Below, in pieces: positions 37,601-62,669 of a stretch of DNA of 64,000 nt. The stretch's first letter is position 1, and the number at the start of each line of letters is the position of its first letter. The DNA comes from Syntrophorhabdaceae bacterium (GTDB taxonomy: Bacteria > Desulfobacterota > Syntrophorhabdia > Syntrophorhabdales > Syntrophorhabdaceae). The translations under genes and the position numbers were made by a program. Under the pieces are notes generated by a model, which did no database searches, had not been told where the DNA came from, and was given only the letters and a program-made list of their open reading frames with translations. The DNA is taken from positions 480,001 through 544,000 of the forward strand of contig OY762209.1 in the NCBI GenBank assembly GCA_963665295.1, given 5' to 3'.

Positions 37601-40600
37601 ATTGCCAGCTACGGATAATAAAGCTTGGGTCGGCGCAGTCGTCCCAATTCCGACGTTGCCGCTTGTAAAAATGGTACTGTACCCGCTACGCGGCGTTATG
37701 TCCAAATTAGCTGTTGTATCGTTATACCTCAAAGATGCAGCATAAGTTGTAGCGTTAGTATATGGACCAAGATATAGAACAGCATCGCCCGGACCCGTAC
37801 CGCCCGGCCGCCCAATCAATACTGAAGTGTCTACCGCCAACTTCGCCCCCGGCGCCGTTGTTCCAATCCCGACGTTGTACGAAGTTGAATCCGGATAAAG
37901 ATTTGATCCAGTGAGAGTCCAAGCTCCTCCACTACTTGAGATATCTGACCATGATGCATTTCCGGAAGCATCAGTGGTGAGATAATATCCAGCCGATGCT
38001 CCATTGGTCATTGTGAGAGTGGTGGTATATGTTCTTCCGTTGACTTGCAAATTTCCGCTGGATGGGTTGGTTGTTCCGATTCCGACGTTGCCATTAGTTG
38101 GAGCTAGCAGAACATTAGTCCCATTAACCTGCCATCTATAAACTAAGTTTGTCTGATCGTATAAACCAAAAGTTGAACCGCCTATTTGAAAATTATAAGT
38201 ATTAGCTGAGGATCTTTGGAACTGTAAGGCATTGGATGTGCTTGAATATATATCTAGCATCGATGCTGGATTCGTCGTTCCGATTCCGACGTTGCCGCCA
38301 CTGGGTTGCAGTAACATATTGTAGGCGGTCGCGGTGCCGTCGATGCGTTGCACTTGTTGGAAAACATCGCCGGTAGCCAAACCTCCAACTAACAAGCCAT
38401 GACCGGAACCGACGGTCACTCCAAGCGACCCTCCATAAACGCCCAGCGCCGGTATGGTGTCCGTGCCCGTTCGGCGGATGTCTAATTTACCGAGCGGGTT
38501 CGTTGTCCCAATCCCGACGTTGCCGTCTGTTTTTATAGTAACTTTTGCCTCTCCAATAACACTTCCGGTTCCAATCTCCAATCTGTCTCCATCTGAATTA
38601 TCCATTCCCAAATGCCAGTATTGAGTTGCATAAGCACCCAAGACATATAACGGATCTCCTGCGCTTGCGCCTCCCACAAAATTGATAATTCTGGAACCTG
38701 AACTAACATTGGTATTATCAGTATTCATCAAATATTCATCCAAGTTTCCACCAACACTTGCCTTGCGAACATCAAGTAATCCTACCGGTGCTGTCGTCCC
38801 GATGCCGACGTTACCGCCTTGAGTAATTCTCATTCTCTCATTAGCATCAGCGTAACCGCCAGTAAAGAGTCTCAATAAGCCTGCCGCATCCGAAGCGGCG
38901 ATGTTAATTCCTCCTGTTCCATTAGCACCAATTTGCATAGCGCCTGCTTGATAAGCCCCATTGGTTGTGTATCCTGAACCATAATTATCTATAAACGCCG
39001 AGCTTGCATTTGTCTGTAAAAGCATTCTGCTATACGCCGCATTGCCAGTGTTTGGATTTTCAATTCCTAGTTCTGCTACAGAATTGGCGTTTTTCCAAAG
39101 ATAAAACATTTGCGCTGGCGCTGTCGTCCCGATGCCGACATTGCCGCCACTGGTAATTCTCATCGCTTCAGCCAAACTTGAAGTTGAATGTGTAGAAAAT
39201 GTCAAAGCAAAAGGATAACTTCCCCAAGCCTCTCTTACCGCTTTTATCTCGGCCCCGCTTGCACCAGTTTCTTGATAAAATTGAAGTGCCTGCGCTTGAC
39301 TGTAGTCACCGCTTGTTTGATTGCCATTTTGAATAGCGATATTGCCGTTCGCAACTTGTAACTTCGCCCCCGGCGCCGTCGTTCCGATTCCGACGTTGCC
39401 GTTATTTACATTTAGACCATTAACCCCTCCAGTAATTAACGAAAGAATATTAGCTCCGGCAGAACTCATACCAGTGTCCTCATCTCCTACAAATGAAAAG
39501 ACGGGATTAGTCGCCGAAGGTGCCTCACCTAAAAGGGTCGGGTAGGTAGCAATGGAACTGCCAAAGTAAGGATTACTGAATTTCCACATATCCGTTCCGG
39601 CAATTGAAATACGGAAATTATCATCGCTAGCTTCAAATATTCCGCTATCACCATCGCCGAATGCTAAAGTGGGAGTTGTCTGCAACGCTCCTGGTGTTTG
39701 ATTGAGATGTAATAATCCATTTGGACTGGTGGTCCCAATTCCGACTTTTCCGTAGGTATTTATGCGCATGGCTTCATGGAAACCCACGCCACCTTCATAG
39801 GTACTGAAAGCTAGTTGACCACTGTTGGCATAAAGCTCTCTGTAAGATTCAATTTTTGCCAAGTTATAGTTGCTGGAGGTTATATTGGTAAATAGTAATG
39901 TACCAGTAACAGAACTGTTTGAAGTTTGGTTGGCATGAATTGTAAGTGTTGGTTGCGTATCAAAAATTTCCAATTTTGAGGTTGGTCCCGTCGTCCCGAT
40001 CCCGACGTTGTACGAAGTTGAATCCGGATAAAGATTTGATCCAGTGAGAGTCCAAGCTCCTCCACTACTTGAGATATCTGACCATGATGCATTTCCGGAA
40101 GCATCAGTGGTAAGATAATATCCAGCCGATGCTCCATTGGTCATTGTGAGAGTGGTGGTATATGTTCTTCCGTTGACTTGCAAATTTCCGCTGGATGGGT
40201 TGGTCGTCCCAATTCCGACGTTGCCACTTTGGTTAATAACCATCACATCATTTCCACTAGATGCTCTAAATTCGAGTGCGCTACCTGTGGAAAGTTGATT
40301 TGTTCCTATGCCCCATCGGTATAAAGAATTGTCATAGAATGTAAGAGCAGCAGAACCACCGTTTGTAGCGGTTTCAATTCTAAGTCCAGTATCTCCGGTA
40401 CTGTTATATAAATGAAGTTTGACAGCCGGACTTGTCGTCCCGATTCCAACGTTGCCGCCGGTTATTGTGGTATTACCACCATTGTTTTCGAGAGCGATGC
40501 CTTTCGCTGAAATTGCCAAGTTCTCCCAAGCCCCACCCGTCCGGTCATACGACTGAATCTGTGAGCGAGTATTGCTTGTGGCATACCACATTTCAAGCCC

Positions 40601-47748: not shown

Positions 47749-47883
47749 TTTGGGGGAGAAGCATTTTCTGTGGTCCGTCGGCGAAGCACGACAGAACCCC
47801 AGCGCAGGGCTTTAACCGCAAAAGCAAAACAATGACGGTATAAACCCCTGCGCTGGGCTTCGCCACAGAAAAGCATCCCCCCG
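47749..47883. other. Long imperfect inverted repeat directly upstream of a Replic_Relax-like gene
   Basis: GGGGG..GC.TTTTCTGTGG..GGCGAAGC..CCCAGCGCAGGG / CCCTGCGCTGGG-CTTCGCC-ACAGAAAAGC.TCCCCC. Confidence 0.7.
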
Positions 47884-47895
47884 TATTTTTGATTT

Positions 47896-48570
47896 ATGAT
47901 ACTCAGTAGAGCAACCATCCGGGAGTTCATTTCCAAAATGGAATGGGCCACCGCCGCCAACATCTGCTTTCTCCTTTCCGGAAAGAGGAAGCGGAGAGAC
48001 TACGCCATTGTCGCCGCCGAACTTAACAGCATGTGCCGGACCAAGCGCAAGGAAATCCGTCTTAAAAAACTCAACCACGAATTCTATACCTGCTATGCTC
48101 TGGCCACCAATCCGAGAACAACCCTCAACCACAACCATGTCGAACACGACATCAAGCTCCGGAGCTGTTTGGGAAGATACTTCTATCTTTGCGGCCATGG
48201 ACTCATGGAATACCTCTCCATCGAAACCTTTGCCGACGCGGTCCTCAAGCTCAGTACCGGAGACCTGTATTTCGAATTCGACAGCGGACATATGGGAAGG
48301 AAGCAACTCAAGACCAAGATTATGACGCATTACACAGGCAAAGGAGCCTTCAGAGTTGTCTTCTGGACAGGGACCGCCGAATACGCCCACTGGAAGAACG
48401 CGGCAACGATTAAATGCCTGGAACGGAACCGTCTCAACCTGTTATTTCAAATCACGAGAAAGGTACTCAGGGAGAAACCGAACCGGGTGTTGGGGGCTTC
48501 GTATCACGACTATCTGGAAACCGGGAGACTGCATACCCAGAAAGGGTCCTCCATTTGGACCAATGAGTGA
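47896..48570 (+). CDS. Replication-relaxation (Replic_Relax)-like wHTH + PD-(D/E)xK protein
   Basis: HVEHDI, ADAVL..LYFEFDSGHM...KI..Y...FRVVFWT parallel the motifs in 56250..57155. Confidence 0.55.
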   Translation: MILSRATIREFISKMEWATAANICFLLSGKRKRRDYAIVAAELNSMCRTKRKEIRLKKLNHEFYTCYALATNPRTTLNHNHVEHDIKLRSCLGRYFYLCGHGLMEYLSIETFADAVLKLSTGDLYFEFDSGHMGRKQLKTKIMTHYTGKGAFRVVFWTGTAEYAHWKNAATIKCLERNRLNLLFQITRKVLREKPNRVLGASYHDYLETGRLHTQKGSSIWTNE

Positions 48571-50417: not shown

Positions 50418-50837
50418 ATGGACTCACTTGTACACGAAACAAATGGAAGACTGGTTATGCTCGACCTTTGGGGATGCGATTTTGAGACGCTCAATAATTT
50501 CGCATCTCTTTCGAGTGAGGCAAAAGTGGCAGCCGAAAAGGCGGGAATGAATGTTCTCGCAATTTCCGTTGTGCCTTTTGTGCCGCAGGGGTACAGCATA
50601 GTCTTGACTCTAAGTGAATCACACCTCACTATCCACACCTCTCCCGAACAGGGGTATGCGGCTATCGACGTCTTCACCTGCGGGCACGGAAAACCTCACG
50701 TTGCCGCGAACCATTTACTGGCAATTCTCAAACCCGGCCAGATTCTTGCGAAAGTAATCCAAAGAGGGGAGCAGGCTCCGGCAGGCGCAGAGGGCTTTAA
50801 TGGAAATTTTCAGTCCGGGAGCACCCGCCATGCTTAG
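50418..50837 (+). CDS. speD: S-adenosylmethionine decarboxylase proenzyme
   Basis: FVPQGYS...LSESHLTIHTSPEQGYAAIDVFTCG, including the E-SH autocleavage site. Confidence 0.88.
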   Translation: MDSLVHETNGRLVMLDLWGCDFETLNNFASLSSEAKVAAEKAGMNVLAISVVPFVPQGYSIVLTLSESHLTIHTSPEQGYAAIDVFTCGHGKPHVAANHLLAILKPGQILAKVIQRGEQAPAGAEGFNGNFQSGSTRHA

Positions 50838-51399
50838 TGGCCAACTCACTCGCTTGAGACCTCTGGAAGATAAGGACTTTGCCTACTACTACTCGTGCAT
50901 GGACAATCCCGACTTGGCCGGAGTTGTCTTGGGAGACGCAGTCCCCTCTCCAAGGGAACTGACCAAGAAGCTGCTTCAAAAACAGGACGACCTCCTCCTT
51001 ACGGTAGAAACCTTATCGGGTACGCCAGTAGGTTTTTGCTTTCTCCGCAACATGCACCCCATTCACCGCTTTGCCGAGCTTGAACAATTCTTTATCGGAA
51101 ATCCCAGAGACCGCCGTCGTGGACACGGAGAAGATGCCATCCGGACGCTCACTCGCTACTGCTTTAGCATCCTCGGACTCAATCGAGTCTGGCTCATAAC
51201 CTATGCTTACAACTTCTCTGCAATACGCTTCTATGAAAAATGCGGTTTCTCGAAAGAAGGCGTGCTCAGACAGATTCAATTCACAGGAAGGGAGTATCAT
51301 GACGGGGTCACCATGGCCATCTTGCAGCAGGACTGGATTGCTATGCATAAAAGACACCGGTCACCGCACGAACCATCACCGATTGGGGTATCCCGTTGA
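50800..51399 (+). CDS. GNAT acetyltransferase (RimJ/RimL/SpeG-like)
   Basis: LRPLE, RRRGHG acetyl-CoA motif, LGLNRVWL, YNFSAIRFYEKCGFSKEGVLR. Confidence 0.85.
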   Translation: MEIFSPGAPAMLSGQLTRLRPLEDKDFAYYYSCMDNPDLAGVVLGDAVPSPRELTKKLLQKQDDLLLTVETLSGTPVGFCFLRNMHPIHRFAELEQFFIGNPRDRRRGHGEDAIRTLTRYCFSILGLNRVWLITYAYNFSAIRFYEKCGFSKEGVLRQIQFTGREYHDGVTMAILQQDWIAMHKRHRSPHEPSPIGVSR

Positions 51400-51812
51400 C
51401 GGATCAGCAAATCAACCTTTTTCGATCCAAGCAGTCGGACGATTGGGCCACCCCCAAGTGGCTCTACGACCAACTTGACGCGGAATTCCATTTTGACCTC
51501 GACCCTTGTCCCCTCAACCCTACCTTTGACGGGCTTAAAATCCCCTGGTGCGGAAACGTGTATGTAAACCCTCCGTACAGCAGGGTCCGCGAATTTCTCG
51601 CCAAAGCCCACGAGGAACTTAGGGCCGGACGAGCCCGGACGGTCGTGTTCCTGGTGTTCGCGAACACTGATACGGATTGGTTTCACACCTATGTCTACCA
51701 TCAGGCTGAGATTCGATTCCTTAGAGGCCGGATCAAATTTGTGGCCCCGGGCAAGAACAACTCCGCCATGCGGCCAAGCATGCTCGTTATCTTCAGAAAC
51801 AGAATCTCCTAA
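51396..51812 (+). CDS. Phage-type Dam-like N6-adenine methyltransferase (small)
   Basis: DDWATP, FDLDPC, VYVNPPYS, TDTDWFH, IRFLRGRIKF. Confidence 0.88.
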   Translation: MTDQQINLFRSKQSDDWATPKWLYDQLDAEFHFDLDPCPLNPTFDGLKIPWCGNVYVNPPYSRVREFLAKAHEELRAGRARTVVFLVFANTDTDWFHTYVYHQAEIRFLRGRIKFVAPGKNNSAMRPSMLVIFRNRIS

Positions 51813-51961: not shown

Positions 51962-52531
51962 ATGGAGATTTCAAGAAATGCTTATCCGTACCAGACACTG
52001 GCGATTTTCATCGACTACCACAACTTCGAGGCTTCTTTGAGGGACGAGGGCCTGCAGGTAGACCTCTTGCCCTTGAGGGAGTACCTGGCCGGAGGCAGGC
52101 AACTGCTGGAGACATTCGTGTTTGTCGGCTTCAACCCCAACAACGCTCACGAAGACGGACAGCTCCATCGGTTCTTGCGAGTGAACGGTTTTCTCGTACG
52201 GACTAAGCTGGCCAAGGTAAGGCCTGATGGTTCCTTGAAATGTGATCTCGATATCGAGATGGCTTTGTCTGTGGTCGATTACGTGACTCGGAACAGACTG
52301 GACACCGTGCTCCTCGTGACTGGCGACGGGGACTTCTCTCCCCTTGCCTCGTGGCTCCGGATGAGAGGCGTCCGGGTAGAAGTGGCTTCGCTAGAACGCA
52401 GTATGTCCCATGAGCTTAAGGAGTCGGCAAACGGCTACATTGACCTCCGTGAAGCCATCGAAGAAATCGAGGCAGGACGGGGAGAACTCATAAGAGAGGA
52501 GGTGAGAACCTATGGCAACGGCAATTATTAA
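51962..52531 (+). CDS. NYN/LabA-family PIN-like ribonuclease
   Basis: IFIDYHN, KCDLDIEMAL, LVTGDGDFSPL...GVRVEV...LKESANGYIDL; GGAGGTG RBS before ATG 51962. Confidence 0.85.
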   Translation: MEISRNAYPYQTLAIFIDYHNFEASLRDEGLQVDLLPLREYLAGGRQLLETFVFVGFNPNNAHEDGQLHRFLRVNGFLVRTKLAKVRPDGSLKCDLDIEMALSVVDYVTRNRLDTVLLVTGDGDFSPLASWLRMRGVRVEVASLERSMSHELKESANGYIDLREAIEEIEAGRGELIREEVRTYGNGNY

Positions 52532-52718
52532 TGGACGGCGGGTTGACATTCCCTCCACGGCAACGGATGACGATATTCGTCAGGCCGGAGGAATTCGTCC
52601 CGAGAGGACCCTCATCAAACGGGAGAGGCACGGGAACTTCGTGATCCAGCGCGGGTCAAGGACGAATGTCAAAGAAGGTGATGTGTTTGTTGATTCACCG
52701 AAAAGGATCAAGGGTTAA
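52512..52718 (+). CDS. Ubiquitin-like (beta-grasp) protein with C-terminal Gly
   Basis: 68 aa; AIINGRRVDI...VKEGDVF..SPKRIKG*; lies immediately upstream of E2-like and E1-like genes. Confidence 0.7.
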   Translation: MATAIINGRRVDIPSTATDDDIRQAGGIRPERTLIKRERHGNFVIQRGSRTNVKEGDVFVDSPKRIKG

Positions 52719-52770
52719 ATCACAACGGAGGGCCGGGCAACCCTGGCCCTCCCCTTAAAGGAGGAGACGT

Positions 52771-53298
52771 ATGGCAGAATTTTTGAATTCGTTGTTCAGA
52801 GGATTATTCGGCAGTCCGTCTGAAGCACCCCGGCAGGACACTGCGTTACCCGGAAGACATCCGGTCCGTTCCATCCGGAACGAAAGGCTTCTCAATGAGA
52901 TCATGATGATCGCCCCGAGATTCAGCCAGAACGGAGGGGTGTACTACGACGAGCACAACTTCGACTGGATCATGATTCCCAAGTACGCCCTGCCGGAACG
53001 GTGGGAGGAGAGATGGTGTAAGCTCCTTATTATACCCCCCGCAGGCTATCCGAGCATGCCTCCTATCGGCTTTTATCTCAACCAAAAATTTCACCTCAAA
53101 ACGGGTGGCCACGACCCTCACAACACCAGCACCGCTTACCATGGGGCACCCGACCTTCTGCATAGTGGCTGGCACTGGTACTGCGTTACCGTGGCAGACG
53201 GGCCGGGCGGCTGGCAGCCATCGGTCGATTACCGCGAAAAGGACAATCTCTGGACGTTTCTTAATATGGCCAGAGAAACCCTTACCAACGACTTTTGA
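52771..53298 (+). CDS. Prokaryotic E2/UBC-like protein
   Basis: WIMIPKYALPERW...LLIIPPAGYPSMPPIGFY...GWHWYC...WQP...DNLWTFL. Confidence 0.8.
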   Translation: MAEFLNSLFRGLFGSPSEAPRQDTALPGRHPVRSIRNERLLNEIMMIAPRFSQNGGVYYDEHNFDWIMIPKYALPERWEERWCKLLIIPPAGYPSMPPIGFYLNQKFHLKTGGHDPHNTSTAYHGAPDLLHSGWHWYCVTVADGPGGWQPSVDYREKDNLWTFLNMARETLTNDF

Positions 53299-53309
53299 AG
53301 GAGGCACAA

Positions 53310-54809
53310 ATGAAATACAGGATCATTCTCACCAAAGGCATGGCGGAGGAGTTGAAGAAGCACCTCCTTACAGACCGACGCAAGGAACAGATGGCTGTCA
53401 CCTTGTGCGGAGTGAACCGCCTCAAGAACGAAACCAGATTACTCGCCAGACACCTCATACTCTTTCCACCCGAGGCGTTCCAAACCCAGTCTTCGGCCTA
53501 CCTCGAACTGGACCAGGGGGTCCAGCGTCAGATTCTTGGATTGGCCGCAGCGGAAGGGCTGTCGCAGATTGATTGGCACAGTCACCCCGGCGACACATCG
53601 TGCATCGGCTTTTCCGGCGTTGACAACCACAATGAAAGTAAGCTCGCGGCCTACCTTCACGAAAAGATCCCCGGTACACTCTACGGGTCCGTGGTAGTGA
53701 ACCGGAACGTCTTCGACGCCAGGATTTGGCAGGTCGAAAAAGAAAGTATCCAGACAAGACCCGTAGAATCGGTTCGGTGGGGGGACTTCAACGATGCAAG
53801 CCCTGTCTCTTCCAGAGGCGCCAGGCCCGAGGCAATCGAGGAACAGTACTCCCGGCAGGTAGCCGCTTTCGGAAGCGTCTTGCAGACGAGGTTGAGGAAA
53901 TGCAAAATCGGGGTCATCGGGGTTGGCGGTTTGGGAGCGGTCGTTGTAGAAATGCTGTCAAGACTTGGCTCTGACACCTGGATGCTTGTGGACGACGATG
54001 TCGTCGAAATCAGCAACCTTAACCGCCTTCCCGGATCGTCCCGCAGAGACGCCTATTACCGGACTTTAAAGGTCAATGTCGCTCAAAGGAATATCACGAA
54101 AGCCAATCCTTACGCCGCCATTACGGTTTTGCCTTTAAGTGTCACAAATGAGAGGGTCGTCCAGTCCCTCAAGTCTTGCGACCTTTTGGTTGTAGCCACA
54201 GACAACAACAGCAGCCGTCTTATCGCCAATCGCCTCGCCGTGCAATATCTCATTCCCCTTATTCACATCGGCGTCAACATCGACGTGGACGATAACAGGA
54301 CCATAACCGACATGAGCGGAGAGTACGTGTTTCCGCCTCTAGGCGAGTGGTGCCTTCACTGCGCCGGGATCATTGATGGTCAGATGGCCGGATGGGAATT
54401 GGCGGATGAAGGGTTGAGGAGTGTGCTTCGGGAGCGGGGATATGTGAAAGACACACCGGCCCCGGCGGTCTATCATCTGAACACCGTGATGGCCGCCCTC
54501 GCGGTGGCGGAGATACACAACTTTGTCTCCTCTTACAAGCCCGTCCGGCGTTACCTTACCTACGATGAACTCAAAGGAGAGCTTCTGCCTCTTGAAGTCT
54601 CGAATGAACTTCGCTGCCCGGTGTGCGACAACGAAGAGGGATATCTCGGCCTTGGGGACCTAGAGCCCTTGCCGGATTATACGGGGAGGACAAGAACGAT
54701 GCCAAGTACCGATGCGTTTGACGGAGACGGAGAGATGCGCATTTTGCCGGTCAACAATCCCGACAATTCCAACGAAGTTGAGCTTGTGGTCAAAGAGGAG
54801 ACCTTGTGA
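53310..54809 (+). CDS. JAB peptidase - ThiF/E1-like adenylyltransferase fusion
   Basis: N-terminal E...HSHP.....FSGVD JAB motif; YSRQ, GVGGLG, DDDVVEISNLNR, ATDN..SR, CLHC and CPVC. Confidence 0.88.
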   Translation: MKYRIILTKGMAEELKKHLLTDRRKEQMAVTLCGVNRLKNETRLLARHLILFPPEAFQTQSSAYLELDQGVQRQILGLAAAEGLSQIDWHSHPGDTSCIGFSGVDNHNESKLAAYLHEKIPGTLYGSVVVNRNVFDARIWQVEKESIQTRPVESVRWGDFNDASPVSSRGARPEAIEEQYSRQVAAFGSVLQTRLRKCKIGVIGVGGLGAVVVEMLSRLGSDTWMLVDDDVVEISNLNRLPGSSRRDAYYRTLKVNVAQRNITKANPYAAITVLPLSVTNERVVQSLKSCDLLVVATDNNSSRLIANRLAVQYLIPLIHIGVNIDVDDNRTITDMSGEYVFPPLGEWCLHCAGIIDGQMAGWELADEGLRSVLRERGYVKDTPAPAVYHLNTVMAALAVAEIHNFVSSYKPVRRYLTYDELKGELLPLEVSNELRCPVCDNEEGYLGLGDLEPLPDYTGRTRTMPSTDAFDGDGEMRILPVNNPDNSNEVELVVKEETL

Positions 54810-56302
54810 TATTCGAGATGCTCGAAAACGCTGTCATCAGAGGTCTCAATTCTCTCACCTCGCCTAAGCGGGTGAAGAAATCGAGGGAGCCCTCCCGGAT
54901 ACTCATCGGGAGGGCCGCCCACCCTTATCATCCGGAACACTGGGAAGAAATATCGCTCGACGTCGAAAACCTTCTCCGTCACCTGTACTGCTTGGGCGGT
55001 ACGGGCATGGGTAAGACGAAACTGCTGGAGTTTATTATCCAACGTATAATCCTCGCCCACCACGGTTTTGCCCTTATCGATCCGCACGGCGATCTTACGG
55101 AGAACATCATCAATTTTCTCTGTCACAACAAGACTCAATTCGAGATAGACGAATTGGGAGAGCGGGTCATCCTCATTGAACCCTTCGACCGGGAATGGGC
55201 CATCGGATTCAACCCCTTGGACTCGGATGAACCATTCGCCGCGTCTCTCGGTCTCGTGGATATCTTCCGCCAATTTTGGGGCGACAGTTATCGGGGACCG
55301 AGGATGGACGAGCTTCTCAGGAACAGTCTCGCGACCCTCTCTGAGAACAAGCTGACCCTTCTTGAGACAAGACCTTTACTCACCCATCCAGAATTCAGAG
55401 CAAGGCTCGTTAAGAACGTGTCCTTCGGCGAAGTGCGGGATTACTGGAATCATCGGTATAATCCTCTTTCGGAAAAAATGCAGGCCATGTACCGGGAACC
55501 CGTGCTCAACAAAATCACCGCATTCATAACGGACCCGACCATTTACCGAATTCTATGCCAGACAGAAAGCACGGTGAATTTCCGTCGGGCCATGGATCAA
55601 GGGAAATGGATTCTCCTCAATCTCAGCAAAGGACATCTGGGCGAGAACGTGAGGCTTCTCGGTACCCTGTTTCTTTCCAAGCTCAAACAAGCCGCGTTCT
55701 CCAGAATCGATATACCGGAAGAGAGCAGACGTCCGTTCTTCGTCTTTGCCGACGAATTTCAGAGCTTCATGGGGGATGCGGGGACAATTGAAACAGTACT
55801 CTCAGAAAGCAGAAAATTCCGTTTGGCCATTTTTATGGCAAATCAGAATTTGGGGCAGATACCTGCGCAGCTGCGATCAGCCATTTTAGGGAATGTTGGA
55901 GTGGAAATTTTCTTCCGTCTCTCCAACCAGGACAGCGTTTTAGTCTCTTCGGAAATGAGCCACGGCGACAAGCATCTCATCGAAAAGCGGCTGATCGATT
56001 TCAAGGTTGGAGAAGCGTATCTCAAGGTCAAGGGCCAGAAAGCGCGGCTCTTTAAGACTATCCATGTGCCTTCGCTCAGAGTTCCGGAAAGAATGATTGA
56101 ACCACTGAGGGTAGCCTCTTTCCGGAACTGGGCCGCGCCGGTCAGCAAAGTGGAGGAAGAGATCGCGGAGCGGAGAGGAATGTGGGAAGAGAGCGGGATA
56201 GACAACGATTGCTCCCCAAGGGAAACGCAAGGGGCAATTGTAAGGACCGATGATGTTCTTCCTGTCCGCGACTCCTTCGAGGAAGGACAAAGTGAATGGT
56301 GA
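54806..56302 (+). CDS. VirD4/TraG/TrwB-like coupling ATPase
   Basis: RHLYCLGGTGMGKT, IDPHGDL, GFNPL, FADEFQSF, SESRKFRL..ANQNLGQ, AILGNVG..IFFR. Confidence 0.82.
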   Translation: MIFEMLENAVIRGLNSLTSPKRVKKSREPSRILIGRAAHPYHPEHWEEISLDVENLLRHLYCLGGTGMGKTKLLEFIIQRIILAHHGFALIDPHGDLTENIINFLCHNKTQFEIDELGERVILIEPFDREWAIGFNPLDSDEPFAASLGLVDIFRQFWGDSYRGPRMDELLRNSLATLSENKLTLLETRPLLTHPEFRARLVKNVSFGEVRDYWNHRYNPLSEKMQAMYREPVLNKITAFITDPTIYRILCQTESTVNFRRAMDQGKWILLNLSKGHLGENVRLLGTLFLSKLKQAAFSRIDIPEESRRPFFVFADEFQSFMGDAGTIETVLSESRKFRLAIFMANQNLGQIPAQLRSAILGNVGVEIFFRLSNQDSVLVSSEMSHGDKHLIEKRLIDFKVGEAYLKVKGQKARLFKTIHVPSLRVPERMIEPLRVASFRNWAAPVSKVEEEIAERRGMWEESGIDNDCSPRETQGAIVRTDDVLPVRDSFEEGQSEW

Positions 56303-57155
56303 GACCAGAACCAGTAAGTGGCAGAGGACCAAAAATCCGAAGCCCATCTTTCTTCAGGAAAGAGATCAGGAGATAGTCGCCAGGGTCTATGACTTTGGCT
56401 TCCTCACCAGGCAACAAATACAGCGCCTCATTGATTTCAACTGTACAACCAGGGCCAACATACGACTCCGGAAGCTTTTTGATCACGGTTACCTTTTAAG
56501 GCGATTTCTTCCGGTAGTAAAAGGATCATCTCAGGCTCTGTACTTCCTGGGTCCCAAGGGCATAGACCTTGTCTCGGAAAGAACGGGAATCGATGCGGCT
56601 TTAATCAAGAAAAGGCAGGGGAACCATTACGAGCGCAAGGAGTTGTTCCTTGACCATGATCTTCTTCTCAATGATGTGAGGATCGGCGTCTATGATGCTT
56701 TGAAGAAATCTCCCGGCACGGAACTTGACCATTGGGTGAATTACACCGATTGTCTTCAGGAGTGGAATGTCCTCAATCCGAAATCGGGCCGCCAAAACAA
56801 AGTGGCCCTCAGACCTGACGGATATTTCCGCTACTTCTCTGCAGACAAGCTCTTCGGATGTTTTGTGGAGGTGGACAGATCCACTATGAGCAACAGCCGG
56901 TTTCAGTCCAAGGTGAAGCTGTATCTTGAATATATCCGCTCGGGACTCTATCCGGCAAAATTCGGGCTCCAATTCTTCCGGGTTTTGGTAGTGACTGAAA
57001 CAAGGCAGCGCCTTCTTAATCTCAAGTCAGCCACTGAGCAACTCACCGACAAGGTATTCTGGTTCGCGCTGGCCAACAACCTCGTGGAGGGAAATGTCTT
57101 CGAGTCCATCTGGGCGAGACCGGGCAAACCGGGAACCTTCAGTCTGCTGGAGTGA
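56250..57155 (+). CDS. Replication-relaxation (Replic_Relax) family protein
   Basis: LQERDQEI..FLTRQQI..RLRKL wHTH; LDHDLLLND; LRPDGYF..FVEVDRSTM..KVKLY..FRVLVVT. Confidence 0.82.
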   Translation: MMFFLSATPSRKDKVNGETRTSKWQRTKNPKPIFLQERDQEIVARVYDFGFLTRQQIQRLIDFNCTTRANIRLRKLFDHGYLLRRFLPVVKGSSQALYFLGPKGIDLVSERTGIDAALIKKRQGNHYERKELFLDHDLLLNDVRIGVYDALKKSPGTELDHWVNYTDCLQEWNVLNPKSGRQNKVALRPDGYFRYFSADKLFGCFVEVDRSTMSNSRFQSKVKLYLEYIRSGLYPAKFGLQFFRVLVVTETRQRLLNLKSATEQLTDKVFWFALANNLVEGNVFESIWARPGKPGTFSLLE

Positions 57156-57158
57156 GTC

Positions 57159-57617
57159 GTGAGATATTGCCCCCGCTGCCATCACTTCAATCCGGGCAAT
57201 CTCCCGATCTGCCATTTCTGCGGAGCCACCTGGTATGTAAGGCTCTGCCCGAGAGGTCATGAGAATCCCCCAAGCGCCCAATATTGCGGGACATGCGGAT
57301 CAACGGATTTGAGTGAGACGGCGGGCCGCCGACCATGGCTTTTGATTGCCTTTAAATTATTCCTGTGGCTCCTCGTCGGTCTCTTCGTTTACTCACTAGT
57401 CTTTGGCGCTGGCCCCATTTCAGGCAGTCAAATCTTTGCCTATATCTTCTCTCTCGCCTTTCCCCTCTGCCTCCTCCTTGTTGGCCTCTGGCTTCTGCTC
57501 TCGCTTCTGCCGAAGTCTGTAGGGCAGTCAGTTCGCAAGCTGATGAGGCATGTGCTGAGGCTGGCTGGCTTGGCAGCATGGGGTTTGTTGAAGCTGATAT
57601 GGAGGATATTGAAATGA
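57159..57617 (+). CDS. Double zinc ribbon membrane protein
   Basis: CPRC..CHFCG..CPRGH..CGTCG, followed by two to three hydrophobic helices. Confidence 0.75.
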   Translation: MRYCPRCHHFNPGNLPICHFCGATWYVRLCPRGHENPPSAQYCGTCGSTDLSETAGRRPWLLIAFKLFLWLLVGLFVYSLVFGAGPISGSQIFAYIFSLAFPLCLLLVGLWLLLSLLPKSVGQSVRKLMRHVLRLAGLAAWGLLKLIWRILK

Positions 57618-57842: not shown

Positions 57843-58196
57843 ATGGAATTCTTGACGGTTGACGAGATTGCACGGATGCTCAAAGCGAGTCGCGAGTTCG
57901 TTTACAAAAACAGGAGCCTCTTCGGAGGCATCAAAGTGGGAAGGCTCGTGAGATTTCCAAAAATAATTTTTGAGAAGATAATCGAGGAGGTGATAGGAAG
58001 TGGTGGAGAAACACGGCAACAAGTGGAGGTACGATTTTCTGAAGGACGGGACGAGGTACAGAGCGGGAGGATTCAGGAGCAAAGCCGAAGCTATCGAAGC
58101 CGAGGCAAGAGCAAGAGCAGGAGCAAAATCGATAAATACGGACTTGCTAAAGCTTATGAACTCAAGGCTGGAGGATATCCAGATTCGGAGGACTAA
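57843..58196 (+). CDS. Excisionase-like HTH protein
   Basis: GGAGG RBS; MEFLTVDEIARMLKASREFVY...IKVGRLVRFP; overlaps the integrase 5' end. Confidence 0.75.
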   Translation: MEFLTVDEIARMLKASREFVYKNRSLFGGIKVGRLVRFPKIIFEKIIEEVIGSGGETRQQVEVRFSEGRDEVQSGRIQEQSRSYRSRGKSKSRSKIDKYGLAKAYELKAGGYPDSED

Positions 58197-58344
58197 ACTC
58201 CATTTCTGGGAAAACAACAAACTATTCAAAGAACTGATGCAGCGTTGGGGGAACCTCCCCAAGATAACCACAGATGATGTGGAAAAATATCTTAACGAAA
58301 TAGCCAAGAAGTCTAAGCCTATGGCAAACAAATATCTTAGACTA

Positions 58345-60019
58345 GTCTCCATCCGGAAACCCCCATTTTCGAGCAAGCCCCCGGTCTATTGCCAGGGTGG
58401 GCGCTCAGCCGTCCGGTGATTCCGTCATCCCTTTTCGGATTTCACTCCATCGGGCCCGTTTTCCCCAGAGTCAGGGCGTAGCTCACCCTTGTCCCCTTGA
58501 GAAAATAGTCTTCTCTCATCATGAGGCCATCCTGATGCGGGCGATGACGAGAAGATTGTAGGAGACGATACTGGAGAGCACGTACCGGGCAAACCCTTCC
58601 CATCCTGTCCACGTCGCCCGGTCAAGGCCGAAGGACCGTTTCAATGTGGAGATGCCTGCTTCAATGCCCGCCCGGAAGTTCCTGAGCTTCTTGTAGACCC
58701 AGGTGCTCTTTGCCATGTCGAGGATGGAGAGCCCCCTCTTTCTGGCGAAGACGGCATCCTTGATATGGTTCTCCTTCGCATAGGCGAGGTTCTCTTTTGA
58801 GGCAAAGCCCCCGTCGGCCGTCACTTGGCGAGGCATCTTCCCGTACCACTCCTTATGCTGCTCAAGGAGGGATTGATACTGGTCGGTATCAGCGGGGTTG
58901 CCCGGGACGATGAGACACCCGATGATCATGGTGGAGCGTCCTCCTGTAAGGAACACCTTATGGCCGTACTCGGTATCCCTCCTCCCCTTCACGATGATGT
59001 CCGTGTGGTCCTCGAAGAAAGAGACGATCTTCTCGGAGGCGGGGACCTTCTCGTTCTTGAAGACTCTCCGGTCGGTCTGGTCGATGACCTTCCCGAGTAT
59101 GCCCACGGCGCGTTCAAGTCTCCGGGCAAGCTCGCGGGCAGCGAAGGTGTCCATGAGATTATCGCCCTCGTAGGGGATGAGTTCGGTGATCGCCTCTTCG
59201 GCATATCCCTTCACGAGATTCGCATAGTGGAGGAGGTCCTTGTAGGCGCTCTTCCGTGTTCTGTCGTTCTTTGCATTGAGGATCGTCATGAGCTTCTTCT
59301 TGGCTACTCTCCTATGGTCACTGTAGGCATACCGGGGCACGGGAGCAAGCTCCTTCCCTTCGGTGAGTAACCGGGTAATGACGCGGATGCCGTCCACGAT
59401 GAGCGATGAGTCGGTGGGGTGGTGGATGTTGGTCTCCACCGTGGTGGAGTCTACTCTTACCACGCGGCCGGATTCTATCTTCTCCTTTACCGCGTAGCGG
59501 TTTACTTCCTGAATGATCGCCTCCCAGGTTTCTTCCCGTATCGCCTTTATGTTCTCCTGAAGGACCGATTTGGAGGGGTACTGTCCCATCTCCAATCTCG
59601 CGAAACTGCGGAGTGCGTCGGAGTCTTCCATGTGGAAGGCAAGCTCTTCATACGTCAGTTGGCGGTACTGCTTGAGTATGGCGATCCGGAGCACCTGTTC
59701 CGCGGTGAGCCCCTCTCTTCCCGTGTCGGTGCGACAGAAGGAGGTCATATCCCCGAAGACCAGATCCAGAAGGCGGGGATTGGCGTCTATGACCTTTGAC
59801 ATCTCCTGAAGCTCCTTTACAATAGAATGGCGCATCATGGGGGAGAAGAGACCTGTCTGGGGGTTGAATTTCTGGCGCATTCCGGAATCCTTTCTGAAGG
59901 CGTTAGGTAATGATATTGCCTTGTTACAACCATATTGTACCTCAGATGAGGGGCGAAACTCCAGGGGAATGTGGGGATTTGGGCAAATATTTCATGGGGT
60001 TAGGTTTCCGGATGGAGAC
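58345..60019 (-). mobile_element. IS element (IS5/ISNCY-like DDE) with 17 bp terminal IRs and TAGACTA target duplication
   Basis: IRs GTCTCCATCCGGAAACC / GGTTTCCGGATGGAGAC; TAGACTA at 58338-58344 and 60020-60026. Confidence 0.9.
58519..59880 (-). CDS. DDE transposase (IS5/ISNCY-like)
   Basis: RVDSTTVETNIHHPTD, EYGHK, TADGGF, RAGIEAGISTLKRSFGL. Confidence 0.9.
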   Translation of the reverse strand: MRQKFNPQTGLFSPMMRHSIVKELQEMSKVIDANPRLLDLVFGDMTSFCRTDTGREGLTAEQVLRIAILKQYRQLTYEELAFHMEDSDALRSFARLEMGQYPSKSVLQENIKAIREETWEAIIQEVNRYAVKEKIESGRVVRVDSTTVETNIHHPTDSSLIVDGIRVITRLLTEGKELAPVPRYAYSDHRRVAKKKLMTILNAKNDRTRKSAYKDLLHYANLVKGYAEEAITELIPYEGDNLMDTFAARELARRLERAVGILGKVIDQTDRRVFKNEKVPASEKIVSFFEDHTDIIVKGRRDTEYGHKVFLTGGRSTMIIGCLIVPGNPADTDQYQSLLEQHKEWYGKMPRQVTADGGFASKENLAYAKENHIKDAVFARKRGLSILDMAKSTWVYKKLRNFRAGIEAGISTLKRSFGLDRATWTGWEGFARYVLSSIVSYNLLVIARIRMAS

Positions 60020-60218
60020 TAGACTAATCAAGGCACTCTTTAATCACGGGATAAAGAGAAACTGGTTCATATTTAACCCATGCCACGGCATAGCGCCTTT
60101 CGGTATCGAGAAAAGAAAGAAGTATATCCCAACTTTTGAGGACATCGAGAAAGTAATCTCTCTTGCCAAAGAGGAACAGAGGAACTATCTCCTGGTGGTG
60201 GCTCTTACAATGGCTAGA

Positions 60219-62139
60219 CCGAAGTTCCCCCTGTGAAATCCCCCCAATATCACTCTATCCCGTTGAAATGACGGGAATAGGGTGATAATCATATCTTCTA
60301 CTTGTTGCCATGTAATAGTGCATTATGTACTTGACATGTAGGTAAGCTATTTGCTATATATGTTCCATGTACATCGAAAGCATCCCCAACCGCAACTCCC
60401 GGCCCGCCATCCTCTTGAGGGAGGCATGGAGGGAAGGCAAAAAGATAAAGAAGAAGACAGTCGCAAACCTCACTGATTGGCCGGAAGAGAAGATCGAGCT
60501 CTTGAGGCGTGTATTGAAAGGGGAGTCTCTCGTCTCTCCGAAGGAAGCCTTTAAGGTTGAGCAGTCTCTCCCCCACGGCCATGTGGAGGCCATACTCGGG
60601 ACAATAAAGAAGCTTGGCCTTGATACGGTCATTGCCTCGAAGCCTGGAAGGGAGAGAGACCTCGTAATCGCCATGATCGTGGAACGCCTCATCCACCCCT
60701 CATCGAAATTAGCAACTACGAGGCTCTGGCATACTACTTCGGTGGCGGAGGAACTCTCGGTTGCAGATGCCGATGAGGACGAACTCTATGATGCCCTGGA
60801 CTGGCTTTTGGCAAGACAGGAGCGGATCGAGAAGAAGCTGGCGAATAAGCACCTTACCGAGGGCTCGCTCGTGCTCTACGATGTGACGAGCAGTTACTAC
60901 GAGGGCCACACCTGTCCCCTTGCGCAGTTCGGCCATGACCGGGATGAAAAGGGAAAGAGGATCATCGTCTATGGAGTACTCACCGATCACGAAGGCCGAC
61001 CTGTTGCAGTTACCGTCTATCCGGGGAATACGGGCGATCCCTCTACCATTCCCGACCAGACGGCAAAGCTCAAAGAAAGATTCGGTCTCGATCACCTCGT
61101 CCTCGTGGGCGACAGGGGCATGCTTACGGAGACACAGATTACAAAGATAAAGGAGATGCCCGGCATAGGGTGGATATCGGCCCTCAGGTCTTCCGCCATA
61201 CGCGAGCTTGTGGGACAGGGGAGCATCCAGATGTCCCTCTTCGATACCCAGGACTTTGCGGAAATCACCTCTCCCGAGTATCCGGGGGAAAGGCTCATCG
61301 CTTGCTTCAACCCCCTTCTTGCCGAAGAGAGAAAGAGGAAAAGAAACGCGCTCCTCGATGTGACGGAAAAGAAGTTGTCCTCCATTGTACGGGCGGTCGG
61401 GAGAAGGACAAGGACGCCTCTTTCCGCAGCGGAGATAGGGAAGAAAGTCGGCGCGGTAGTCAACGATCACAAGATGGCGAAGCACTTTATCCTTACCATC
61501 GGAGACGGGTCCTTCTCATTCGCCCGGAACGAGGAGTCAATCACCGAAGAAGAAGCCCTCGACGGGATCTATGTGATCCGTACGAGTGAACCAGCCCTTC
61601 CTCCCGCCGATGTGGTACGGAACTACAAGAACCTTGCCCGGGTAGAGCGGGCCTTCAGGACCTTGAAGGGCATCGATCTTCTCGTCCGTCCCATTCACCA
61701 CCGTACCGAGGATCACGTGCGAGCCCACATCTTTCTCTGCACCCTCGCCTATTACGTAGAGTGGCATATGAGGGAGGCCCTTACGCCGCTGCTCTTCGAC
61801 GATGAGGAGCTTCCCCTCTCACGAACGACGAGAGACCCGGTAAAGCCCGCGGAGTCATCTTCTTCCGCAAAGAAAAAGAAGACCACCAAGCTCACCCCTG
61901 ACGGCCTTCCCGTCCAGAGCTTCCGTACCCTCCTTGCCGCACTGGGGACCCGATGCAAAAACCGGTGCAGGATGGTTTTGGACTCCATGGCCCCGGCCTT
62001 CACCCTTCTTACTGATCCGACACCTCTCCAGGCCCGCGCCCTTGCCCTCCTCGGACTGTAGCCAGTAACGGGAAATCAATTTCTGCCATAATCATTGGAA
62101 TATCAAGGTGATGGGTTAATATTGGGCGGGGAACTTCAG
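60219..62139 (+). mobile_element. IS1634-family element with GCTAGA target duplication
   Basis: IRs CCGAAGTTCCCC / GGGGAACTTCAG; GCTAGA at 60213-60218 and 62140-62145. Confidence 0.9.
60367..62061 (+). CDS. IS1634-family transposase
   Basis: LYDVTSSYYEG, FGHDRD, VGDRGM, DGIYVIRT, YKNLARVERAFRTLK, VRAHIFLCTLAY. Confidence 0.9.
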   Translation: MYIESIPNRNSRPAILLREAWREGKKIKKKTVANLTDWPEEKIELLRRVLKGESLVSPKEAFKVEQSLPHGHVEAILGTIKKLGLDTVIASKPGRERDLVIAMIVERLIHPSSKLATTRLWHTTSVAEELSVADADEDELYDALDWLLARQERIEKKLANKHLTEGSLVLYDVTSSYYEGHTCPLAQFGHDRDEKGKRIIVYGVLTDHEGRPVAVTVYPGNTGDPSTIPDQTAKLKERFGLDHLVLVGDRGMLTETQITKIKEMPGIGWISALRSSAIRELVGQGSIQMSLFDTQDFAEITSPEYPGERLIACFNPLLAEERKRKRNALLDVTEKKLSSIVRAVGRRTRTPLSAAEIGKKVGAVVNDHKMAKHFILTIGDGSFSFARNEESITEEEALDGIYVIRTSEPALPPADVVRNYKNLARVERAFRTLKGIDLLVRPIHHRTEDHVRAHIFLCTLAYYVEWHMREALTPLLFDDEELPLSRTTRDPVKPAESSSSAKKKKTTKLTPDGLPVQSFRTLLAALGTRCKNRCRMVLDSMAPAFTLLTDPTPLQARALALLGL

Positions 62140-62595
62140 GCTAGAGTGAGAGAGATTAACAACCTCAAATGGGAAGATGTTAACCTGGATGAAGGATACC
62201 TTGTCCTCAAGACGCGAAAAGCCAAGAACTCTGACGTGGTTTCGAGGAAAATTCCTTTAGTGCCGACTATTAAGAAGATACTCGAATCAATGGATAAGGG
62301 AAACGAGTATGTCTTTGTTAACCCTGTTACCAAAACCAGATACGATTACAGGGACAAGTTTCTCCCGAACCTTTGCAGGAAAGCGGAGGTACGGCCTTTC
62401 ATGTATCACTCACTGAGGCACTACGGAGCATCAAAACTCGCTCACTCTGGCGTACCCTTGACAGACATTCAAGAGCTTCTTGGCCACCAGAGAGCCACTA
62501 CCACCGATATATACCTTCAGAGCTTGAAAAACAGTCTGAGGGAATCCATTAACAAACTCGACTTCCCCCAAAATTTCCCCCAAGACTAAAAGAAA

Positions 62596-62669
62596 TGCGC
62601 CCAGCAGGAATCGAACCTGCAACCTTTGGATTCGAAGTCCAGCACTCTATCCAATTGAGCTATGGGCGC
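62596..62669 (-). tRNA. tRNA-Arg(TCG); CCA not encoded; probable integration site
   Basis: GCGCCCATAGCTCAATTGGATAGAGTGCTGGACTTCGAATCCAAAGGTTGCAGGTTCGATTCCTGCTGGGCGCA folds as a cloverleaf; its 3' end lies 6 bp from the integrase stop. Confidence 0.95.

What the first reader, a model, noticed from the sequence alone, without database searches (positions are those of the whole stretch)
51962..57617. Ubiquitin-like conjugation module (NYN-Ubl-E2-JAB/E1) runs directly into a VirD4-like ATPase, a relaxase-like protein and a zinc-ribbon membrane protein
Seen: seven co-oriented genes with overlapping or near-abutting ends (the E1 TGA overlaps the ATPase GTG). The Ubl ends in a free Gly. Known: Ubl-E2-JAB-E1 sets resemble the bacterial Bil antiphage and Bub operons, and VirD4-like plus Replic_Relax genes are DNA-mobilisation modules. 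Inference: the Ubl may be ligated to the coupling or relaxase proteins to control transfer, or the ATPase, PD-(D/E)xK protein, NYN RNase and membrane protein may be repurposed effectors of one defence system. I know of no described system with this seven-gene layout.
Basis: partly seen in the sequence, partly recalled or inferred. Interest (0 to 1): 0.85.

Follow-up and report, generated by a model that had tools for sequence, protein, structure and literature searches.

The report
Ubiquitin-like defence cassette on mobilisable element
A four-gene bacterial protein-tagging cassette with an unusual mix of catalytic residues rides at the front of a small mobile DNA element, and elsewhere sits inside CRISPR loci, so it is most likely an anti-virus module that is carried by the transfer genes rather than controlling them.

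Summary
All seven genes are real, but they form two modules. NYN-Ubl-E2-JAB/E1 is a variant of Type I Bub. The JAB/E1 matches BubCD over about 410 residues and keeps the catalytic Tyr. The E2 has Cys where BubB has Ser and lacks its His and Asp. BubE was not found. This predicts an untested Tyr-ester to Cys-thioester relay. VirD4-Replic_Relax-zinc ribbon-xis-integrase is the known MOBC-type integrative mobilisable element layout. Of 36 cassette loci with at least 2 kb downstream, 17 lie in CRISPR loci without VirD4, 12 precede VirD4/relaxase and 7 match neither. Only 1 of 14 VirD4-relaxase loci found by the relaxase carries the cassette. Near-identical Amycolatopsis backbones occur with and without it. 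Against pure cargo: the link persists within two lineages whose common origin is not rejected. Best reading: a defence cassette held as long-term cargo (0.62); functional coupling to transfer about 0.13. The scan saw the CRISPR-linked form before on other DNA (e1-7751427), and Altae-Tran 2023 lists a like-named module.

The parts
51962..52531 (+). NYN (LabA/DUF88, PIN-like) predicted RNase; conserved first gene of the cassette
   Evidence: PF01936 87 bits; D18, N21, D103, D122 kept in at least 90% of 33 aligned homologues; NYN present in 33 of 44 loci with at least 1.2 kb upstream of the E2
52512..52718 (+). Single-domain beta-grasp Ubl of Bub type, ending in a free Gly (RxKG)
   Evidence: Model pLDDT 92.5; best structural matches are Citrobacter and E. 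coli multi-ubiquitin (Bub) proteins, Z 10.3 and 9.1; R65, K67, G68 invariant in 38 of 38; relatives carry short C-terminal tails or are fused to the E2
52771..53298 (+). Prok-E2_E (BubB-like) E2 with Cys138 at the position of BubB Ser333; no His335 or Asp299 equivalent
   Evidence: PF14462; best fold match BubB 9eae_C, E 1.3e-4; C138 invariant in 35 of 35; register
53310..54809 (+). JAB peptidase-E1 fusion, BubCD homologue with crossover-loop Tyr378 and two CxxC pairs
   Evidence: phmmer to Citrobacter BubCD E 5.9e-32 over residues 4-415; next best PDB hit 1e-11; E26, H90, H92, D105, R239, Y378, C348, C351, C436, C439 invariant in 12 of 12
54806..56302 (+). VirD4/TrwB-like coupling ATPase, short form without a predicted membrane anchor
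   Evidence: PF10412, PF01935; Walker A and B intact; no 19-residue window above hydropathy 1.6; homologues named T4SS DNA-binding or VirD4 proteins
56292..57155 (+). Replic_Relax (PF13814; MOBC-type) relaxase-like protein
   Evidence: 89 bits; D176, E193, D195 invariant in 4 of 4; PF13814 equated with MobC in PMC5357655
57159..57617 (+). Double zinc ribbon plus two predicted transmembrane helices; part of the element backbone
   Evidence: DZR 24 bits, under cut-off; hydropathy peaks at residues 63 and 99; follows the relaxase in L004, L020, L022 and L097 and was not found with the cassette elsewhere
57843..58196 (+). HTH_17 excisionase-like gene
   Evidence: PF12728 24.9 bits, under cut-off; an ORF of similar size sits at the same place in L020 and L097
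58000..62589 (+). Tyrosine integrase region interrupted by two insertion sequences; the C-terminal catalytic part is at 62095-62589
   Evidence: PF00589 75 bits on the last piece; assigning the upstream pieces to the same gene is inference from position (the L020 integrase matched only the last piece)
58337..60027 (-). Insertion sequence A (DDE transposase, 25-nt inverted repeats), 7 copies in the genome
60231..62140 (+). Insertion sequence B (DDE transposase), 12 copies in the genome; ends approximate
62596..62669 (-). tRNA-Arg(TCG), integration site; its 3' 43 nt are repeated 68 kb away at G000:474681-474723, just before the window

Best explanation
Two modules are joined in one transcription unit. 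Module 1 (NYN-Ubl-E2-JAB/E1) is a self-contained protein-tagging defence cassette of the Bub lineage. Inferred steps: the E1 adenylates the Ubl's C-terminal Gly; Tyr378 takes it up as an aryl ester, as shown for BubCD Y370; the Ubl passes to E2 Cys138 as a thioester, not the Ser oxyester of Bub; the E2 transfers it, without an E3, to lysines of an invader or host protein. The JAB domain trims Ubl tails or Ubl-E2 fusions in relatives. Here the Gly is already free and BubE is missing, so JAB probably also removes the tag. NYN supplies an RNase arm whose link to tagging is unknown. Module 2 (VirD4-relaxase-zinc ribbon-xis-integrase at tRNA-Arg) is the backbone of a MOBC-type integrative mobilisable element that would borrow a mating pore in trans. 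It now looks immobile because two IS interrupt the integrase region. The cassette occupies the cargo slot ahead of the coupling gene and is kept there over long times. Shown: gene content, residues, contexts. Inferred: all chemistry, defence and transfer.
For: The cassette occurs without VirD4 or relaxase in 17 of 36 informative loci, between Cas6 and type III RAMP genes in Chloroflexi or next to RT-Cas1. It also lies in two cyanobacterial plasmid CRISPR loci, and upstream of a type III-E gRAMP in L058. 13 of 14 informative VirD4-relaxase loci found by the relaxase lack it. L019 and L139 in one Amycolatopsis genome share 88% DNA identity over 5.6 kb of backbone, but only L019 has the cassette. 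L004 has three genes, two of them DNA methylases, between E1 and VirD4. All cassette-linked VirD4s as one clade is rejected, p-AU 6.6e-6. The CP-relaxase-xis-integrase order is IME class 8 of PMC5357655. The surrounding 68-kb island holds AbiE, type III RM, Sir2-HerA, TmtA and pAgo genes. Two VirB4 loci elsewhere in the genome could serve as helpers.
Against: The link to VirD4/relaxase recurs in 12 of 36 loci. All 7 distinct members of the Binatia-type VirD4 clade carry the cassette, though 6 of them were found through the E2. The E1 and VirD4 trees are broadly congruent within the window and Binatia lineages. A common origin of those two VirD4 clades is not rejected (p-AU 0.12; held together with support 71). 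The E1 stop overlaps the VirD4 start in the window, L020 and L022. No window-clade VirD4 with known upstream DNA and without the cassette was found. HerA-type ATPases also flank the cassette in L057 and L074. No antiphage activity has been shown for Bub in the parts of the Bub preprint that I read.
Confidence: 0.62

Rival explanations
1. In the window and Binatia lineages the cassette has been recruited to work with the transfer genes. The Ubl is ligated to the coupling ATPase, the relaxase or a helper element's pore, and so gates the element's own transfer or blocks competitors.
For: Overlapping E1/VirD4 junction in three elements. Broadly congruent E1 and VirD4 trees in two lineages. The two VirD4 clades may share an origin. 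In L118 the order is cassette-relaxase-VirD4, so adjacency survived a rearrangement. Most Binatia-type elements lack NYN, as if another partner served.
Against: Closely related cassettes (about 50% E1 identity) sit in CRISPR loci without any VirD4. Backbones with and without the cassette coexist. Gaps of 0.1-2.8 kb, some holding other genes, separate E1 from the transfer genes in 9 of the 12 relatives measured.
Confidence: 0.13
2. The ATPase and PD-(D/E)xK protein are no longer transfer proteins. They have become sensor and nuclease of one seven-gene defence system, in the manner of HerA-nuclease pairs.
For: The ATPase has no predicted membrane anchor and weakly matches PADLOC HerA and mad8 models. 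HerA genes flank the cassette in L057 and L074. No mating-pore gene was seen in the element.
Against: xis- and integrase-like genes, and in the window and L097 a tRNA target, follow the pair as in IME class 8. The pair is common without the cassette. IMEs normally lack pore genes (PMC5357655, abstract start).
Confidence: 0.08
3. The cassette is not an antiphage system in its own right but a regulator. It tags host or Cas proteins, or NYN matures RNAs, and so modulates whichever system it joins. In this genome it could be an orphan.
For: Strong enrichment inside type III CRISPR loci and next to RT-Cas1. A CRISPR-associated NYN is reported to process RNA (title and abstract start only).
Against: No RAMP gene was found in this genome, yet all catalytic residues are intact. 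Intact copies persist in many elements with no CRISPR nearby.
Confidence: 0.17

Closest known systems
Type I Bub (6E.1) operon, BubAB-BubCD-BubE (Ye et al., bioRxiv 10.1101/2024.11.21.623953; read parts 1-4 of 6)
   Same: JAB-E1 fusion homologous along about 410 residues, crossover-loop Tyr, Prok-E2_E fold, Bub-type beta-grasp Ubl; Ubl-E2 fusions occur in relatives.
   Different: E2 has Cys, not Ser-His-Asp; BubE not found; NYN added; Ubl and E2 are separate genes; E1 keeps a CxxC pair where Citrobacter BubCD has none.
Type I/II Bil systems (as summarised in the Bub preprint and PMC11601603, part 1 of 6)
   Same: Ubl, E2 and JAB without an E3; cysteine-based transfer chemistry is used in Bil.
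   Different: Bil has separate JAB and E1 genes and an E1 with a catalytic-Cys domain. Here JAB and E1 are fused and the E1 crossover loop has Tyr and no Cys.
[quoted passage not shown] 2023, PMC10910872; seen as a Fig. 6 legend and one row name in supplementary file 2)
   Same: The four gene names match this cassette, and its relatives are CRISPR-linked.
   Different: No CorA and no type III CRISPR here. The legend says E2 family A. Identity of the families could not be checked by sequence.
IME class 8: VirD4 + PF13814/MobC relaxase + excisionase + integrase (Coluzzi et al. 2017, PMC5357655; passages read)
   Same: Same compact order of coupling protein, relaxase, xis and integrase, with no mating pore.
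   Different: Tyrosine rather than serine integrase, an added zinc-ribbon membrane gene, a Gram-negative-type host context, and the Ubl cassette as first cargo.

Membership tests
Type I Bub | JAB-E1 fusion (BubCD) with intact JAB and adenylation sites | tested here: met
   E 5.9e-32 over residues 4-415; E26/H90/H92/D105 and R239 invariant
Type I Bub | Catalytic Tyr, no Cys, in the E1 crossover loop | tested here: met
   Y378 aligns with the residue that is Phe in the Y370F structure 9eav; a GY motif was found in 40 of 41 E1s
Type I Bub | E2 with Ser-His-Asp active site (S333, H335, D299) | tested here: not met
   C138, T140 and I99 at those positions. The register comes from an ungapped reading; HMMER's own alignment put a gap here. 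Of 151 E2s, 91 were parsed: 83 Cys, 7 Ser-His-Asp, 1 doubtful Ser; 60 were unparsed
Type I Bub | BubE (DUF6527) serine protease in the operon | tested here: not met
   PF20137 in 0 of 1 own genome (98% complete) and 0 of 5 other cassette genomes; the control rang in Caulobacter
Type I Bub | Ubl-E2 fusion (BubAB) | tested here: not met
   Stop after G68 and a 52-nt gap; fused in several relatives such as P0003, L055 and L015
Type I Bub | ATP-dependent Ubl conjugation | not testable with these tools
   needs biochemistry
Bil (type I/II) | Separate JAB and E1; E1 with IAD-AAD-CYS architecture and catalytic Cys | tested here: not met
   One JAB-E1 ORF; single ThiF domain; Tyr in the loop
MOBC-type IME (class 8) | VirD4 coupling protein directly before a PF13814 relaxase, then xis and integrase | tested here: met
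MOBC-type IME (class 8) | Integration site with att direct repeats | tested here: met
   43-nt repeat of the tRNA-Arg 3' end, 68 kb apart. No nearer repeat longer than 10 nt, so the left end of this sub-element is not defined
MOBC-type IME (class 8) | Intact integrase able to excise | tested here: not met
   Two multi-copy IS interrupt the region; L020 and L004 carry uninterrupted integrase ORFs
MOBC-type IME (class 8) | oriT, and a hit to the CONJscan MOBC profile | not testable with these tools
   No such profile is offered; no oriT was identified
[quoted passage not shown] | Same protein families | not testable with these tools
   Only the name was seen
[quoted passage not shown] | CRISPR link and CorA at the locus | tested here: not met
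   No RAMP match in the genome; no CorA among the locus ORFs

The most novel reading that the evidence does not exclude
In one old lineage of integrative elements (window plus Binatia clades), a ubiquitin-like ligase with mixed Tyr-ester/Cys-thioester chemistry has been wired to the DNA-transfer machinery. It tags the coupling ATPase, the relaxase or the helper's secretion pore, so that protein conjugation controls DNA conjugation. The same ligase was separately recruited into type III CRISPR loci.
Probability: 0.13. Interest if true: 0.88.

Novelty: new variant of a known kind. Interest (0 to 1): 0.52.

Why it matters
The Bub preprint describes pathways that work entirely through oxyesters. 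This widespread sister family keeps the Bub Tyr on E1 but has a Cys on E2. Its relatives grade from Ser-His-Asp through Cys-His to Cys alone. That gives a ready series for testing how ubiquitin-like chemistry moved between thioester and oxyester forms. The same cassette shuttles between type III CRISPR loci and mobilisable elements, which offers two contexts in which to find its target. If it proved to act on the transfer proteins, it would be a new way of controlling horizontal gene transfer; my two literature searches for that combination returned no paper that, by title and abstract start, describes it.

Tried and rejected
Single-protein E2 scan of genome contigs: nothing. Viral-contig scans with the E2, relaxase, Binatia-type VirD4 and E1 alignments: nothing confirmed. 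The window-type VirD4 alignment gave one 34% locus without the cassette. Complex prediction of Ubl + E2 with NYN as partner: no answer, score 0.01 against a mark of 0.32; not used either way. No complex job was run for VirD4 or the relaxase. A direct reciprocal test inside the window's own VirD4 clade failed for lack of loci. The relaxase was found in 0 of 95 other genomes of the class and 1 of 400 of the phylum. That one (L097) is frameshifted, and its upstream DNA looks foreign or chimeric. Searches around G449, G448 and G447 found no new member of either clade. About 70 short-form VirD4 homologues at 36-78% identity have no context available. Sequencing runs: no RNA holder listed. Contigs showed no joint that skips either IS or joins the att sites, but contigs break at repeats. 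ORF 47896-48570 as a second relaxase: hhalign probability 3%, inconclusive. The promoter scan was near chance, 10 sites against 5.8 +/- 2.2 expected. The ESM Atlas gave only an unnamed DZR cluster for the membrane protein. Foldseek gave no Ubl match at E <= 0.001. The careful E1 tree did not finish, so the quick tree was used. The first nine-row clade test did not finish and was redone on a different 25-row set. The idea that every cassette-linked VirD4 is a separate capture was dropped. Supplements of the bioRxiv Bub preprint (Table S1, its operon list) were not seen and might include Cys-type members. The Bil preprint was seen only as a search listing.


Full report
Observation. The seven ORFs exist as described, co-oriented and tightly packed. 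Family scans give NYN, Prok-E2_E, ThiF with a weak Prok-JAB, TrwB/DUF87, Replic_Relax and DZR. The 68-residue ORF has no real Pfam match, but it folds as a beta-grasp closest to Bub Ubls and ends in an invariant Gly. One contig spans 43800-58370 without differences in two runs; either may be the source sample. tblastn found no other copy of the module genes in the genome, apart from a weak 25% match to the E1 part.

Setting. The genes lie near the right end of a 68-kb island. It is bounded by tRNA-Arg (62596-62669) and a 43-nt copy of its 3' end at G000:474681. The island holds AbiE, a type III restriction-modification set, Sir2-HerA, TmtA and a short pAgo pair. After the seventh gene come an HTH_17 gene and a tyrosine integrase region interrupted by two IS, with 7 and 12 copies in the genome. 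The relaxase was not found in 95 other genomes of the class, which fits recent lateral gain.

The tagging module. The JAB/E1 matches Citrobacter BubCD over residues 4-415 (E 5.9e-32); the next PDB family scores 1e-11. The JAB residues, the adenylation Arg and Tyr378 (BubCD Y370) are invariant in 12 close homologues, and a GY motif was found in 40 of 41 E1s. The E2 model's best match is BubB. The Bub preprint (parts 1-4 of 6 read) defines the Type I E2 by S333, H335 and D299 and states that all Bub operons encode BubE. Here the motif is W-H-W-Y-C-V-T against Y-Q-R-W-S-R-H in BubB. The intermediate forms W-A-Q-F-S-F-H and W-A-W-L-C-x-H fall in the same columns. So Cys138 stands at the Ser, and the His and Asp are absent. 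This register is my ungapped reading; HMMER placed a gap there. Among 151 E2 sequences, 91 could be parsed: 83 have Cys, 7 have Ser and always His and Asp, and 1 is a doubtful Ser; 60 were unparsed. BubE was not found in the own genome or in five other cassette genomes. The cassette therefore works like Type I Bub but fails three of its defining features. From general chemistry (my own knowledge), a tyrosyl ester is activated enough to pass an acyl group to a cysteine, so a Tyr-to-Cys relay is plausible. It is untested.

Where the cassette occurs. An alignment of close E2s found 18 genome and 57 metagenome loci. 73 of these 75 passed the threshold, and 36 had at least 2 kb downstream. By marker search, 17 were CRISPR, 12 VirD4/relaxase and 7 neither. 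Four pairs have identical E1s, and many Chloroflexi loci are kin, so these are not independent events. Among the 7, L058 lies upstream of a type III-E gRAMP, L016 has Cas2 and Csx20 about 7 kb away, and L055 and L074 have HerA-like ATPase genes downstream. NYN was present in 33 of 44 loci with enough upstream DNA and is missing from most Binatia-type elements. Three cyanobacterial plasmids also matched; the two that I opened have the cassette among cas genes.

The transfer module. The ATPase has intact Walker motifs and no predicted membrane anchor. The relaxase keeps its D...E-x-D core. Coluzzi 2017 (passages) equates PF13814 with MobC and describes IMEs with VirD4, MobC relaxase, excisionase and integrase in this order. 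The zinc-ribbon gene follows the relaxase in L004, L020, L022 and L097 and was not found beside cassettes lacking it, so it belongs to the backbone. Two VirB4 loci elsewhere in the genome could act as helpers. Defence cargo on IMEs is common (Botelho 2023, abstract only).

Reciprocal test. I fetched 29 regions around Replic_Relax matches. I left out three loci already known as positives from the E2 search (L003, L005, L019), the window, L097 and six weak matches. 14 of the 29 had an adjacent same-strand VirD4 and at least 3 kb on the cargo side; only L118 carries the cassette. Adding back the three known positives gives 4 of 17. In one Amycolatopsis genome, two backbones 88% identical over 5.6 kb differ in having the cassette. 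All cassette-linked VirD4s as one clade is rejected (p-AU 6.6e-6). These loci are mostly distant from the window's own VirD4 clade, for which no cassette-free example with known upstream DNA was obtained.

Results against the cargo reading. The full layout is kept in L020 and L022, with the E1/VirD4 overlap. All seven distinct Binatia-type VirD4s carry the cassette, though six were found through it. The E1 and VirD4 branching is broadly congruent within both lineages. The window and Binatia VirD4 clades, about 19-24% identical, fall apart in two trees and together in one (support 71); holding them together is not rejected (p-AU 0.12). The Chloroflexi CRISPR cassettes branch inside this element-borne group with weak support (82), which would fit a move from element to CRISPR locus. 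Long co-inheritance is thus possible. It is expected of useful cargo in a fixed slot, but also of a working partnership.

Verdict. Most likely (0.62) this is a Bub-lineage defence cassette with a Cys E2 and an NYN RNase, carried as long-term cargo by a MOBC-type IME that now looks immobile. A regulatory role without its own antiphage activity (0.17), coupling to transfer (0.13) and a repurposed seven-gene defence system (0.08) remain. It is a new variant of a known kind. The mixed chemistry is the most solid new point. Literature searches for a Ubl-relaxase/VirD4 link and for NYN with Bub gave no paper that, by title and abstract start, describes it; the library lacks most subscription papers.

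Noticed in passing
window 50418-51399; L022 713-1682: An AdoMet decarboxylase and a spermidine-acetyltransferase-like GNAT precede the cassette here and in L022 (55% and 54% identity): a polyamine-related cargo pair on a mobile element.
   Followed up: partly
window 51396-51812: Phage-type Dam methyltransferase between the GNAT and NYN; methylases also lie beside the transfer genes in L004 and L131.
   Followed up: partly
window 47794-48570: A 21-nt inverted repeat directly upstream of a 224-aa ORF without a Pfam match whose motifs faintly recall Replic_Relax (hhalign probability 3%).
   Followed up: partly
window 28682-42622 (-): 4646-aa protein with about 40 repeats and a Peptidase_S74 domain, next to a 1013-aa TSP1-like protein, in a low-GC part of the island.
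   Followed up: no
window 892-23231: Dense defence island: AbiE, type III RM with DrmD-like SNF2, Sir2-HerA, TmtA, REase-type short pAgo pair.
   Followed up: partly
L058 703-11426: The cassette (Ubl-E2 fusion, JAB/E1, NYN) lies directly upstream of four unannotated ORFs and a type III-E gRAMP, all on one strand.
   Followed up: partly
L015 7840-13062; L018 7546-13613: Cassette genes run into RT and Cas1 (with Cas2 and Cas4 in L015) on one strand in Cetobacterium and Fretibacterium.
   Followed up: partly
P0020, P0030, P0037, P0040; P0076; P0077: The E2 domain is fused to the C-terminus of about 1135-aa RRM proteins, and to EAD8- or TIR-domain proteins.
   Followed up: no
G000 3233514-3323955: A second tRNA-Arg island of about 90 kb with a 39-nt att repeat, RadC and VirB4; a possible helper conjugative element.
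   Followed up: no
L097 (G224:C16:1-8800): The contig start looks unrelated in gene content and composition to the rest; possibly chimeric.
   Followed up: no
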